From Dictyostelium discoideum (lineage: Eukaryota), in the NCBI GenBank assembly GCA_000004695.1, contig CM000151.3, forward strand, positions 4,896,001-4,960,000: a stretch of DNA of 64,000 nt, given 5' to 3'. Of the stretch, positions 21,455 through 25,065 are shown piece by piece (the first letter of the stretch is position 1; each line of letters begins with the position of its first letter). The translations under genes and the position numbers were made by a program. The notes below the pieces were generated by a model that had not been told where the DNA came from, made no database searches, and saw only the letters and a list, made by a program, of their open reading frames with translations.

Positions 21455-22399
21455 TTATGGTTTGAGTGCAGGTTGTTGTGTGACACCAAGAGCGTTAGTT
21501 GTCATAAGAATACCGACAATAACAGCGTAAAGACCTAAGGCACCAGCGAAAATTTCAATAATAAGCATTTTAACAAAAAGTGATGGATTTTGAGCGTCAC
21601 CCAATGCACAACCACTACCAGCAATACCTACGCAAACACTTTTTTTTTTTAAAAAATAATAAAAAAATTTGAGTGTTAGTTTTGATATATAAAAAAAAAA
21701 AAAAAAAAGTTTATTAAAAACTAAAAAACAATAATAATTACCCTGAAAAAACATTACAAAGACCAACAGTGATACCGGCACCAAACATCATGTAACCGGC
21801 CATATAATCGGAAGCTGGATCCCAAATATTTAAAAATTTATCGATTTTACCCTATAAAAATTAAAAAATATATAAAGGTTAGTAACTCTCTAGATATTTG
21901 TAATATTCGTTGTAAAAGTAGTGAATAATTTTCTATTATCATTGTTCTTATTTTTGTTGCTATTATTATTTTATTTATTATTATTATTATTATCATAATC
22001 ATCATCATCATCATAGTCATAATCATAACTATTATTCATTATCATCCATTATGTTGAATTATCTTTGCTATAGCGTGGTTTATATAACTCCACTTTACTA
22101 TCATCACGATCAATACTGTTGTTGTTGTTGTTGTTGTTGTTGTGTTCTTGTTGTTGTGTTCTTGTTGTTTTAAATTCTCTAAATACATAATTAAATCTAT
22201 GACTGTTTTAAACATACATTTAAAATAATAGCTAAAATAATACCATAAATAGCTACAGCTTCACAGAAAATAATACTAATAATATTTTTTGAACGAATTC
22301 TTGGTTCTTTAACGGCAGCACCCATAAGTGATGATGCAGTGACCCAAATACCCCTATTAATTGTGTAAAGTTAGTATTGATTACTTATTTATTTATTTA

Positions 22400-22466
<67 letters not shown>

Positions 22467-22582
22467 ATTATTAATGATTATTATTTTATTAGGTCCAAAC
22501 ATACCAAGCTGAACCAACAACTGATAAGGCTAATGAAAGGCCAATACCTGCATAAAAAAAAAATAGTTAGAAATAGTTTTGG

Positions 22583-22618
<36 letters not shown>

Positions 22619-22802
22619 CTTATTAAAAAATAAATGAAATAACGAAATTCATAAGTAAAAAAAAAAAAAAAATAAAAAAAATATATAAATAATACGTACC
22701 AAGTGCAGCCCATGTTGATGGGGATATAGTTACAAGGAAATAAGTACATTGATCATAATAGTTATTATCTGGAATTGGAGTAAGTGGATTAATATCAGGC
22801 AT
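21455..22802 (-). CDS. V-type ATPase V0 21 kDa proteolipid subunit c'' (ATP6V0B/Vma16 homolog); complement(join(22700..22802,22505..22547,22218..22353,21742..21851,21455..21638)), 191 aa
   Basis: The joined product is [177 protein letters not shown]... It aligns along its whole length with human ATP6V0B (..[123 protein letters not shown]). Donors are gtacgt, gtatgt, gtatgt and gtaatt. All phases were checked. Confidence 0.85.
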
Positions 22803-23443
22803 TTTTAATATATATATATAAATAAACACACAAAATTTTATGTACAAAAAAAGTTTTATGAAAAAAAAAAATTAAAAAAAAAAAATTAAAAAAAAAAAAA
22901 AAAAACAAATTTTCGCTTCAAAAAATTAAAAAAAAAAAAAAAAAAAAAAAGTTGAAGCACATATAAAATTTTTTTTACCAGGGCTTTATTTATTATTTTT
23001 ATTTTTATTTTTATTTTTAATTTTTTTTTTTTTCTGATACTAAAAGATTAATTAAACAAAAGAGCACTTTTTTTTGGGAACCTGTGACAATGATTTTTCT
23101 GGGGGGTGGTTTGTAATATATTTATACTATTATAATATATTAAAGTTGACTTAACCACTTTTCCAATAATTTATTTATTCATTCATTATTTAAATAATAT
23201 AATTAATTTTTACTAATATATATATATTTTTTATTTTTTTTTTATTTTTTTCAGGCTATTCATAGGAAAATAAAATAAAAACAAATCATCTCTTTCAATA
23301 TTTATGAATATAATTTTAAAAAGTTCAAATTAAAAGCAATCAGAAACTTGGCACCAACTCAAATTTTTTAATAAATTAAAATAAATAATATAATAATCAC
23401 GCCCAAAATAACTTTAAAATTTGGTTTTATTTTTATTTTATTA

Positions 23444-23474
<31 letters not shown>

Positions 23475-24281
23475 CATAAAAATCTTCGTTAAAAAAAAAA
23501 ATAAATAAATAAATAAATTAAAATTTGGCTTAAAACAAAAAGTTAAATAATTTTTCTGTTTTTTTTTGATCGTCCACTTGAAATATTCCATAAAATTTTT
23601 CCCAAGATTATTACCAGTTTATTTTTAAAATTTATTTAATTTATTTTTTTTTTTAAAAAAAAAAAAAAAAAAATTCAAAAAAAAAAAAATCAACATATTT
23701 TACACGCTCGCTTTTTTTTTTTTTTATATTCAATATCCCAAAACCAACAAATATTAATAAATATTAATTTGATTTAATAATATTTGTCCTCAAATAAATT
23801 TTTTTTTTTTATATAAACCATTAACAATAAATAAATATATATATATATATAACGTAAGTTTAAGTTTATATTATTATTTTTTTTTTTTTTTTTTTTCCTC
23901 TTTCCTTCCTATCAACACCACCACATTCCTCTCAAAAGGGGCACAAATAGATTTTCATTTAAATAATTAAACCAATGCCCAATCAAAAATCATTTATAAT
24001 CAACTTGTTGTTTTTTATAATTTTATTATTATTTTCATTTTTTTATTTTTTTTTTTCCAAAATTAAACAGTAACAAAATTACCAGGTTAATCTTTCACTT
24101 TTTTTTTAAAAAAATTATTTTTATTTTAATTTTTTTAATTTTTTTTTTTTTTTTTTTTTTTTTTCAATTTTTTTTTTTTTTTTTTCACATTCGAGCATCA
24201 AATTTTTTTTTTATTTTTTTTTTTTCCTACGCACATATTAACAAATATTAATTATTTATAAATATACAGTCACATTAAAAA

Positions 24282-25065
24282 ATGTTTCAATTATTAAGCT
24301 TTTTATTAAGTGGTGAAGCCACCGCAGTCGAAAGAATCATCACTGATGCTTGGTATGTAAAATAAATAAATAAATGAATAAAAAATAGAATATAAATAAA
24401 TAAAAATAGTAAATAAATAAAAATAGTAAATAAATAAAAAATAGTAAATAAATAAAAAAAATAAAAAAAATCAATTAATTAAAAAAATAAATTAATAAAT
24501 AAACAAATTACTAATATTTTAAAATTAATAAATAAATAATTATAGCCCAGTTTATGCCCCATTCTTTGGTGCTATGGGTGTCACAGCTGCTTTAGTTTTC
24601 ACAGTTATGGGTGCCGCTTATGGTACTGCTAAAGCCTCTGTTGGTATTTCAAATATGGGTGTTATGAAACCAGATCTTGTAATTAAAGCTTTCATTCCAG
24701 TTATTTTTGCTGGTGTTATTGCTATCTATGGTCTTATTATTTGTGTTATTCTCGTCGGTGGTATCAAACCAAATGCCAACTATACCTTAATGAAATCTTT
24801 CACTGATTTAGGTGCTGGTTTAACTGTCGGTCTCTGTGGTCTTGCTGCTGGTATGGCTATTGGTATTGTTGGTGACTCTGGTGTTAGAGCTTTCGGTCAA
24901 CAACCAAAATTATACGTTATTATGATGCTTATCCTTATTTTCTCTGAAGCTCTTGGTTTATATGGTTTAATTATTGGTATTTTATTATCATCTGTCTCAG
25001 ATACCTATTGCCCAGGTCAAGCTTTAGTTCCATTAAACAGTGGTAACGTTATTGGTAAAAACTAA
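24282..25065 (+). CDS. vatP: V-type ATPase V0 16 kDa proteolipid subunit c; join(24282..24352,24546..25065), 196 aa
   Basis: Exon 1 is [23 protein letters not shown](tg), with donor gtatgt. Acceptor tatag|c gives C, then [102 protein letters not shown]. The yeast Vma3 N-terminus [14 protein letters not shown] matches. This gene is divergent, head-to-head, with the c'' gene. Confidence 0.9.

What the first reader, a model, noticed from the sequence alone, without database searches (positions are those of the whole stretch)
21455..25065. Head-to-head V-ATPase proteolipid genes (c'' and c) sharing one 1.5-kb intergenic region
The c'' subunit gene (minus; ATG at 22802) and vatP (plus; ATG at 24282) are divergently transcribed from a common 1.48-kb region. 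That region contains unusual non-AT islands (23041..23110 gggaacctgtgacaatgatttttctggggggtggtttg, and 23890..23990 cctctttccttcctatcaacaccaccacattcctctcaaaaggggcacaaatag). Two stoichiometric subunits of the same V0 ring under a likely bidirectional promoter is a tidy co-regulation arrangement.
Basis: partly seen in the sequence, partly recalled or inferred. Interest (0 to 1): 0.5.

Follow-up and report, generated by a model that had tools for sequence, protein, structure and literature searches.

The report
Conserved head-to-head V-ATPase proteolipid gene pair
Two genes for the membrane ring of the vacuolar proton pump sit back-to-back in Dictyostelium discoideum, and this pairing, with a short repeated DNA motif between the genes, is kept in every social amoeba examined while all neighbouring genes were shuffled, which points to joint regulation.

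Summary
The window is D. discoideum AX4 chromosome 2. DDB_G0274141 (V0 subunit c'', minus strand, 5 exons, 191 aa) and vatP (V0 subunit c, plus strand, 2 exons, 196 aa) are divergent, with 1,479 bp between their ATGs and no sign of a third gene.

The pair is head-to-head in all 8 dictyostelid genomes checked, covering groups 1-4. The flanks are scrambled, and in T. lacteum the pair is inverted as a unit. Acanthamoeba, Balamuthia and Pelomyxa lack the pairing; the Entamoeba nuttalli contig shows no c'' upstream of c but ends 271 bp after it.

Island 1 is a conserved block. Island 2 is lineage-specific.

The new result is a palindromic ACCWGGT/CCTGGT element. It occurs in every dictyostelid c/c'' spacer, about 16-fold enriched over neighbouring spacers. 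It recurs about 200 bp upstream of each ATG and at the centre, even where the DNA no longer aligns.

A single compact bidirectional promoter is not supported. The spacer is long (0.67-2.0 kb) and modular, and the ring needs c and c'' at about 9:1. The best reading is two promoters that share cis-elements. Transcription starts, co-expression and the binding factor are untested. Interest is modest: a new example of a known kind of arrangement.

The parts
21455..22802 (-). DDB_G0274141, V-ATPase V0 subunit c'' (21-kDa proteolipid). Exons: 22802..22700, 22547..22505, 22353..22218, 21851..21742, 21638..21455 (stop TAA at 21455-57). Product 191 aa.
   Evidence: The GT..AG model was built. It is 100% identical to the annotated AX4 protein. 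PF00137 occurs twice. The best PDB matches are c'' chains.
24282..25065 (+). vatP, V-ATPase V0 subunit c (16-kDa proteolipid). Exon 1 is 24282..24352, the intron is 24353..24545, and exon 2 is 24546..25065. Product 196 aa.
   Evidence: The TM4 Glu (..[11 protein letters not shown]..) aligns with the conserved Glu of solved c subunits.
22803..24281 (.). Divergent spacer between the two ATGs: 1,479 bp, 15.3% GC, with no detectable third gene.
   Evidence: There is no ORF of 60 aa or more, no tRNA and no Rfam hit at E<=1. No coding conservation was found. The NCBI accessions XP_644318 and XP_644319 are consecutive.
24060..24281 (+). vatP-proximal conserved module. It is the putative core promoter and 5'UTR, including CACATTCGAGCATCAAA and CCTACGCACATATTAACAAATATTAATTATT.
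   Evidence: The three-species alignment of Dd, D. dimigraforme and D. firmibasis. The TSS is inferred, not mapped.
24081..24087 (.). ACCAGGT palindromic element, 194-200 bp upstream of the vatP ATG.
   Evidence: It is the only 7-mer with GC>=4 shared by the spacers of all 6 independent lineages, against 0 of 1000 shuffled sets. A site lies at a similar distance (177-280 bp) upstream of c genes in Ddim, Dfir, Dpur (both copies), Cfas and Halb.
23555..23760 (.). Central conserved module. It contains ACCAG (CTGGT) at 23613-23617, which is a doublet in D. dimigraforme, D. firmibasis and D. purpureum.
23043..23096 (-). Island 1: a conserved c''-proximal block 241-294 bp upstream of the c'' ATG.
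   Evidence: It is 54/54 identical in D. dimigraforme and 40/41 in D. firmibasis, at the same distance from the ATG. It shows no RNA fold signal.
22977..22982 (.). ACCAGG (CCTGGT) element, about 175 bp upstream of the c'' ATG.
   Evidence: Equivalent c''-proximal sites lie at 189-273 bp in Ddim, Dpur, Tlac and Asub.
22827..22833 (-). TTGTGTG element (read in the c'' sense), 24 nt upstream of the c'' ATG.
   Evidence: TG-rich 7-mers occur in all spacers and, with one exception, on the c''-sense strand.
23897..23950 (.). Island 2: a C/CA-rich GC peak, specific to the D. discoideum lineage.
   Evidence: It is a GC peak of 0.50. It is replaced by (ATT)n in D. dimigraforme and by unrelated sequence in D. 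firmibasis. It shows no fold signal.

Best explanation
This is the D. discoideum chromosome 2 locus where the genes for the two proteolipids of the V-ATPase V0 ring, c'' (DDB_G0274141) and c (vatP), are transcribed away from each other across a 1.48-kb AT-rich spacer that holds no other gene.

The spacer is not one compact bidirectional promoter. It is two gene-proximal promoter modules plus a central module. Each module carries copies of a palindromic ACCWGGT/CCTGGT element, often next to TG-rich sequence.

I infer that one dimeric or multimeric transcription factor binds these copies and co-regulates both genes. I also infer that promoters of unequal strength supply the roughly 9:1 c:c'' ratio the ring needs. 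Dependence of both genes on shared, especially central, elements or on a common chromatin domain would explain why rearrangements that split the pair have not survived.

Shown here: gene identities, layout, absence of a third gene, deep conservation of the adjacency, and motif enrichment with conserved positions. Inferred: factor binding, transcription start sites, co-expression, and selection as the cause of the linkage.
For: Identity and layout.

The head-to-head c/c'' layout is present in D. purpureum, D. firmibasis, D. dimigraforme, T. lacteum, C. fasciculata, H. album and A. subglobosum.

The flanks are not conserved. With the pair masked, the +-10 kb flanks share no genes in 9 of 10 comparisons between lineages. 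Only the pair is shared between the window and Dpur, Cfas, Halb and Asub. In T. lacteum the pair is inverted as a unit relative to the cyclin C-like gene and its neighbour.

The pairing was not found in Acanthamoeba, Balamuthia, Pelomyxa or Entamoeba.

Motif evidence:
- ACCWGGT occurs exactly once in each of the 8 spacers.
- It is the only 7-mer with GC>=4 common to the 6 independent lineages. None of 1000 dinucleotide-shuffled sets share any such 7-mer. The per-lineage chance of presence is 0.02-0.09.
- CCTGGT/ACCAGG occurs at 1.58 per kb in c/c'' spacers, against 0.10 per kb in 30 kb of neighbouring spacers.
- In the 64-kb window, the only two copies in AT-rich non-coding DNA are in this spacer.

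[quoted passage not shown] Sites lie about 200 bp from the c ATG, at the centre, and about 200 bp from the c'' ATG, and the gaps are 1,479 and 1,432 bp.

The second D. purpureum c paralogue keeps a site 215 bp upstream in an otherwise unalignable promoter.

The 9:1 chain ratio is seen in solved structures. vatP has stronger codon bias than c''.
Against: - No expression data, TSS map or protein-DNA binding data could be consulted, so co-regulation is inference.
- C. fasciculata has no CCTGGT site near c''. D. firmibasis has lost the c''-proximal copy. The element may therefore be mainly a c-gene promoter element.
- The motif was discovered and tested on the same small set of sequences. Three of the eight species are close relatives.
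[quoted passage not shown] Only the deeper conservation is informative.
- No genome-wide baseline was computed for how many adjacencies survive across all four groups.
Confidence: 0.6

Rival explanations
1. The two promoters are fully independent. The adjacency is a neutral relic that simply has not yet been broken, and the shared motif is a general promoter element or belongs only to the c gene.
For: The spacer is long enough for two complete promoters, and the conserved blocks cluster next to each gene. Cfas and Dfir lack a c''-proximal site. Small conserved blocks are frequent within group 4.
Against: The pair survives in all four groups while every flank changed, and it survived an inversion whose breakpoints lie just outside it. 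The retained partners are subunits of one ring, which is unlikely for a random surviving adjacency. The motif is about 16-fold rarer in neighbouring spacers.
Confidence: 0.25
2. This is a classic compact bidirectional promoter. One nucleosome-free region drives both genes from start sites a few hundred bp apart, with long 5'UTRs filling the rest of the spacer.
For: The layout is divergent. The central conserved module (23555-23760) carries CTGGT doublets in relatives.
Against: The ATG-to-ATG distance is 0.67-2.0 kb in all species and is the largest or near-largest gap in each locus. TATA-like and T-run sequences and conserved UTR-like blocks lie within about 120 bp of each ATG. The 9:1 product ratio argues for promoters of different strength.
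Confidence: 0.07
3. The spacer hides a third, unannotated gene (a small ORF or non-coding RNA). This gene would account for the non-AT islands and the spacer length.
For: The spacer is twice the average intergenic length, and lncRNAs have higher GC than silent spacers (PMC5295588). Island 1 is 100% conserved over 54 bp in D. dimigraforme.
Against: There is no ORF of 60 aa or more, and stops occur in all frames of the conserved blocks. No tRNA was found. There is no Rfam match at E<=1. No DUSE or Class I RNA motif lies in the spacer. Neither island folds better than shuffled sequence. The protein accessions are consecutive.
Confidence: 0.05

Closest known systems
Divergent histone gene pairs (H2A-H2B, H3-H4) and human COL4A1-COL4A2 (recalled from established knowledge, not tested here)
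   Same: Two subunits of the same assembly are encoded head-to-head. The adjacency is conserved over long evolutionary times and is explained by shared regulatory DNA between the genes.
   Different: Those pairs have short spacers (about 0.1-0.8 kb) and experimentally shown bidirectional promoters. They mostly supply 1:1 or 2:1 products. Here the spacer is 1.5 kb and modular, the ratio is about 9:1, and sharing of elements is inferred only from sequence.
Conserved divergent gene pairs in eukaryotes (Davila Lopez et al. 2010, PMC2871058)
   Same: That paper describes the general pattern in which divergently transcribed neighbours that stay together are often functionally or transcriptionally linked.
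   Different: A text search of that paper found no 'ATPase' or 'proteolipid' terms, and its single mention of Dictyostelium concerns intergenic distance. The c/c'' pairing appears restricted to Dictyostelia among the Amoebozoa sampled.
CLEAR/TFEB-MITF regulon of animal V-ATPase and lysosomal genes (recalled from established knowledge)
   Same: The idea is the same: V-ATPase subunit genes are coordinated by one palindromic promoter element bound by a dimeric factor.
   Different: The CLEAR element is an E-box (GTCACGTGAC), and the animal genes are dispersed. Here the element is ACCWGGT/CCTGGT, the factor is unknown, and only the proteolipid promoters were examined.
MYRF / MrfA (Ndt80-type) binding motif [G/C]CTGGYAC (PMC3742440)
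   Same: The first six positions match CCTGGT. One D. purpureum site reads CCTGGTAC. MYRF sites occur as repeats 3 bp apart, and D. dimigraforme has CTGGTATaccCTGGTAA.
   Different: Most sites here do not end in AC. The same paper states that the binding sequences described for Dictyostelium MrfA differ from CTGGYAC. MrfA is known as a prestalk regulator. This is a lead only.

Membership tests
V-ATPase V0 subunit c (ATP6V0C / Vma3 type) | Two PF00137 hairpins (4 TM helices), with the best similarity to solved c chains rather than c''. | tested here: met
   PF00137 scores 1.2e-29 with 2 stretches. The protein scores 181 bits to plant c, and 172-173 bits to yeast and mammalian c, against <=69 bits to c''.
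V-ATPase V0 subunit c (ATP6V0C / Vma3 type) | A proton-carrying Glu in the last TM helix. | tested here: met
   The Glu in ..[13 protein letters not shown].. aligns with the Glu of ..LILIFAEALALYG.. in the solved plant c subunit.
V-ATPase V0 subunit c'' (ATP6V0B / Vma16 type) | Best similarity to solved c'' chains, with the conserved Glu in the first hairpin (..[11 protein letters not shown]..). | tested here: met
   The protein scores 200 bits to rat, bovine and human c'', against 72 bits to c. [11 protein letters not shown] is identical in the alignment.
V-ATPase V0 subunit c'' (ATP6V0B / Vma16 type) | An extra N-terminal (fifth) TM helix, as in yeast and mammals. | tested here: not met
   Residues 17-179 align to human residues 35-200. 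The 16 residues before that are hydrophilic ([16 protein letters not shown]). Solved c'' chains of 180-182 aa are equally short. From established knowledge (not tested here), the first helix is dispensable in yeast, so this does not exclude membership.
Bidirectional promoter (divergent genes driven from one shared promoter, TSSs <1 kb apart) | Divergent orientation with no intervening gene. | tested here: met
Bidirectional promoter (divergent genes driven from one shared promoter, TSSs <1 kb apart) | Transcription start sites less than about 1 kb apart in one promoter region. | tested here: inconclusive
   The ATG-to-ATG distance is 1,479 bp. TSS positions inferred from the sequence (about 22925 and about 24190) would be about 1.26 kb apart. 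No TSS data are available.
Bidirectional promoter (divergent genes driven from one shared promoter, TSSs <1 kb apart) | Correlated expression that depends on shared elements. | not testable with these tools
   No expression or reporter data were accessible. Only the sequence-level sharing of the ACCWGGT/CCTGGT motif is shown.
Conserved microsynteny block under constraint | The adjacency and orientation are kept across deep lineages while the flanks rearrange. | tested here: met
   Eight dictyostelids from groups 1-4 keep the head-to-head layout. The flanks are unrelated in 9 of 10 comparisons. The unit is inverted in T. lacteum. The pairing was not found in 4 other Amoebozoa.

The most novel reading that the evidence does not exclude
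ACCWGGT/CCTGGT is the recognition site of a so far undescribed dictyostelid regulator of V-ATPase, and perhaps of the wider endolysosomal or contractile-vacuole gene set. It would be a functional analogue of the animal CLEAR/TFEB system. The c/c'' pair is then held together because both genes depend on the same cluster of sites, so the locus would be a ready-made handle for finding that regulator.
Probability: 0.25. Interest if true: 0.6.

Novelty: new member of a known kind. Interest (0 to 1): 0.4.

Why it matters
How protists coordinate the 14 or so V-ATPase subunit genes is essentially unknown. Dictyostelium is a main model for phagosome acidification, contractile vacuoles and host-pathogen work.

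This locus offers three things:
- An adjacency of the two ring subunits that has been conserved since the dictyostelid ancestor.
- A short palindromic element with conserved positions.
- A natural dual-reporter design.

Together these give a concrete, cheap way to test co-regulation and to fish for the factor. If the element proves general for V-ATPase genes, it would define a regulon. If not, the locus is just a tidy, lineage-specific piece of microsynteny between housekeeping genes.

Tried and rejected
- **Hidden gene in the spacer.** I looked for tRNAs, Rfam matches at gathering score and at E<=1, ORFs, cross-species tblastx hits, the Class I RNA 11-mer and DUSE, and RNA folding of both islands on both strands. 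All were negative.
- **Island 2 as a conserved element.** Rejected. It is replaced by an (ATT)n tract in D. dimigraforme and by unrelated sequence in D. firmibasis.
- **Direct DNA similarity of the spacer to D. purpureum or more distant species.** None was found beyond AT-rich low complexity.
- **A second c gene in the D. discoideum window.** None was found.
- **The long c'' intron 3 (366 bp, 23% GC) as a nested gene or conserved element.** Rejected. It is degenerate trinucleotide repeat and is not conserved in relatives.
- **Looking up the AX4 locus itself in the assembly index.** This failed. The identity of the window rests on the 100% protein match.
- **Literature searches.** Searches for the gene ID, vatP, head-to-head V-ATPase proteolipid genes and Dictyostelium bidirectional promoters found no description of this arrangement.
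- **Heidel et al. 2011 genome paper.** I tried to read it for a between-group synteny baseline, but it is not held.
- **MrfA/MYRF as the binding factor.** Kept only as a lead.
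Full report
**What is there.** The window is extremely AT-rich. The spliced product of the minus-strand gene is 100% identical to DDB_G0274141 of Dictyostelium discoideum AX4, on a contig of 8.48 Mb, which is chromosome 2.

I rebuilt both gene models from GT..AG introns:
- c'' (minus strand): exons 22802..22700, 22547..22505, 22353..22218, 21851..21742 and 21638..21455; 191 aa.
- vatP (plus strand): exons 24282..24352 and 24546..25065; 196 aa.

Each product has two PF00137 hairpins. Against solved structures, the first scores 200 bits to mammalian c'' and only 72 bits to c. 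The second scores 181 bits to c and at most 69 bits to c''. The functionally important glutamates align in both.

The two quoted non-AT strings sit at 23076-23113 and 23897-23950. They are the two highest GC peaks of the spacer.

**Is anything else hidden in the spacer?** I found no evidence for it.
- There are no tRNAs and no Rfam matches even at E<=1.
- No ORF reaches 60 aa.
- The conserved blocks have stop codons in every frame. No tblastx similarity exists among distant species.
- No DUSE or Class I RNA motif is present.
- Neither island folds better than shuffled sequence on either strand.
- A published table gives the two proteins consecutive RefSeq numbers, XP_644318 and XP_644319 (PMC10002747). 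This fits with no annotated protein gene lying between them.

I fetched the c'' locus from other genomes. A c-type gene, 72-97% identical to vatP by tblastn over the main aligned stretch, lies head-to-head with c'' in all seven other dictyostelids:
- D. dimigraforme, D. firmibasis and D. purpureum (group 4)
- T. lacteum (group 3)
- H. album and A. subglobosum (group 2)
- C. fasciculata (group 1)

ATG-to-ATG gaps range from 668 to 1,996 bp. In each locus the gap is the largest or nearly the largest intergenic space.

The D. purpureum c model is 5'-truncated. The real start is at L001:8568, which gives a gap of 1,432 bp.

The pairing is an island of conservation:
- The close relatives D. firmibasis and D. 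dimigraforme are collinear with the window over +-10 kb.
- D. purpureum, C. fasciculata, H. album and A. subglobosum share only the pair with the window.
- With the pair masked, the flanks of the five more distant loci share no genes in 9 of 10 comparisons. Only the two group-2 species share flanks.
- In T. lacteum the cyclin C-like gene and its neighbour are still next to the pair. They follow c'' there instead of c, so the two-gene unit was inverted intact.

Published work provides a partial baseline. [quoted passage not shown] One study found no strong shared synteny between dictyostelid groups around Class I RNA loci (PMC7919456).

The pairing was not seen in Acanthamoeba, Balamuthia, Pelomyxa or Entamoeba. 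The Entamoeba nuttalli contig ends 271 bp after the c gene, so that case covers only the upstream side. Myxogastria and protostelids could not be checked.

**Footprinting.** I aligned the spacers of D. discoideum, D. dimigraforme and D. firmibasis. The alignment shows three conserved modules:
- A vatP-proximal module (24060-24281) with UTR-like blocks.
- A central module (about 23555-23760).
- A c''-proximal module.

Island 1 is the core of the c''-proximal module. It is 54/54 identical in D. dimigraforme and 40/41 in D. firmibasis, at the same 241-294 bp from the ATG.

Island 2 is not conserved. It is replaced by an (ATT)n tract in D. dimigraforme and by unrelated sequence in D. firmibasis.

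**A shared element.** Beyond the close relatives the spacers do not align. A k-mer comparison nevertheless found that the palindromic 7-mer ACCWGGT occurs exactly once in each of the eight spacers.

The statistics support this:
- ACCWGGT is the only 7-mer with at least four G/C common to the six independent lineages.
- None of 1000 dinucleotide-shuffled sets shared any such 7-mer.
- The per-lineage chance of presence is 0.02-0.09.

The 6-mer core CCTGGT/ACCAGG occurs 16 times in 10.1 kb of c/c'' spacers. It occurs 3 times in 30.1 kb of the other spacers of the same loci. One of those three lies upstream of the second D. purpureum c paralogue.

In the 64-kb window the core occurs 15 times. Only two copies lie in AT-rich non-coding DNA, and both are in this spacer, at 22977 and 24081.

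The positions are also conserved:
- A site lies 177-280 bp upstream of the c ATG in D. discoideum, D. dimigraforme, D. firmibasis, D. purpureum, C. fasciculata and H. album.
- A central site, often a doublet, is present in the group-4 species.
- A site lies 174-273 bp upstream of the c'' ATG in D. discoideum, D. dimigraforme, D. purpureum, T. lacteum and A. subglobosum.

D. purpureum reproduces the D. discoideum layout (215 / 708-714 / 212-230, against 196 / 664 / 174) without alignable DNA. Its second c copy has CCTGGTG 215 bp upstream of its ATG, in a promoter that is otherwise unalignable with that of the first copy.

TG-rich heptamers (TTGTGTG) are a second shared feature. They lie almost always on the c''-sense strand, and they sit directly next to CTGGT in three species.

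**Interpretation.** The picture, however, is of two promoters that share a motif, and perhaps central elements, rather than one compact bidirectional promoter.

The spacer is about twice the roughly 700-bp average intergenic length (PMC5295588). TATA-like and T-run sequences lie near each gene.

The two products are not needed in equal amounts. Solved mammalian V-ATPases contain nine c chains and one c'' chain per entry. vatP also has the stronger codon bias, with a C-ending codon fraction of 0.36 against 0.19, though this is weak evidence.

I infer that a dimeric or multimeric factor binds the ACCWGGT/CCTGGT copies. The motif resembles the MYRF consensus [G/C]CTGGYAC, including repeats spaced 3 bp apart (PMC3742440). 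That paper, however, says the sites described for Dictyostelium MrfA differ, so this is only a lead.

Caveats:
- C. fasciculata lacks a c''-near site and D. firmibasis has lost its copy.
- The motif was found and tested on the same few sequences.
- No expression, TSS or binding data were available.
- No genome-wide chance baseline for four-group adjacency was computed.

**Comparison and verdict.** The closest known arrangements are conserved divergent pairs that encode partners of one assembly, such as histone pairs and COL4A1/COL4A2. More generally, conserved divergent neighbours tend to be functionally linked (PMC2871058). This locus works like those but differs in three ways: the long modular spacer, the 9:1 requirement, and the lack of experimental proof of sharing.

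Both genes are already annotated. The literature searches here found no description of the conserved pairing or the motif.

I rate it a new member of a known kind. Interest is moderate (0.4). There is a 0.25 chance that the element marks a wider V-ATPase or endolysosomal regulon, which would be more interesting (0.6).

Noticed in passing
L001 (D. purpureum GL870998.1) 4906-6281 and 7659-8568: D. purpureum has two tandem c-subunit genes on the same strand, 87% and 94% identical to vatP over the aligned part. D. discoideum has one in this window. The annotated model of the copy next to c'' is 5'-truncated. The true exon 1 starts at L001:8568.
   Followed up: partly
window 21852-22217 (intron 3 of c''): This intron is unusually long (366 bp) and relatively GC-rich (23%). 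It is made of degenerate CAA/GAT/AAT trinucleotide repeats with coding-like frames, and it has a yeast-like TACTAAC near its 3' end. In D. dimigraforme and D. firmibasis it is a pure (AAT)n tract. In D. purpureum the intron is only about 95 bp. No conserved element was found.
   Followed up: yes
window 22755-22802 (c'' N-terminus): The D. discoideum c'' lacks the extra N-terminal transmembrane helix of yeast and mammalian c''. Its first 16 residues are hydrophilic, and the alignment starts at human residue 35. It therefore resembles the short 180-182 aa c'' chains among the solved structures.
   Followed up: partly
window 25571-25604: A C-rich tract (CCACCTCTGTCCCCTCCCCTCCCCTCCCTTCCCT) lies about 45 bp upstream of the ATG (25650) of a cyclin C-like gene ([11 protein letters not shown]). 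The opposite strand is G-run rich. This is rare in such an AT-rich genome. The exact tract was not found in any fetched locus.
   Followed up: partly
L003 (T. lacteum) 8381-13437 versus window 21455-27700: The c/c'' unit is inverted as a block relative to the conserved cyclin C-like gene and its neighbour. The inversion breakpoints therefore fall just outside the pair.
   Followed up: yes
L008 (Balamuthia mandrillaris) 9737: An ACCWGGT copy lies 264 bp upstream of the Balamuthia c'' ATG, although no c gene is adjacent there. This could be chance, or a hint that the element is older than the pairing.
   Followed up: no
proteins P0127, P0128, P0133, P0149 (Pseudogymnoascus) and P0121 (Symbiodinium transcriptome): These c-subunit homologues of 271-331 aa score higher than single c subunits. 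They may be duplicated or fused proteolipids, or merged models of adjacent genes.
   Followed up: no
protein P0122 (A. subglobosum): A 181-aa c subunit is recorded on a 1.70-Mb contig. The c gene next to c'' in L006 lies on a different contig of 1.50 Mb. A. subglobosum may therefore have a second c gene elsewhere.
   Followed up: no
protein P0003: Another D. discoideum assembly annotates the c'' orthologue as 210 aa with 86% identity to the AX4 protein. This is probably a different splice model around the repeat-rich intron.
   Followed up: no
window 28000-39000: About 11 kb has only 11-17% GC and almost no long ORFs. This is a gene-poor, extremely AT-rich stretch downstream of the locus.
   Followed up: no
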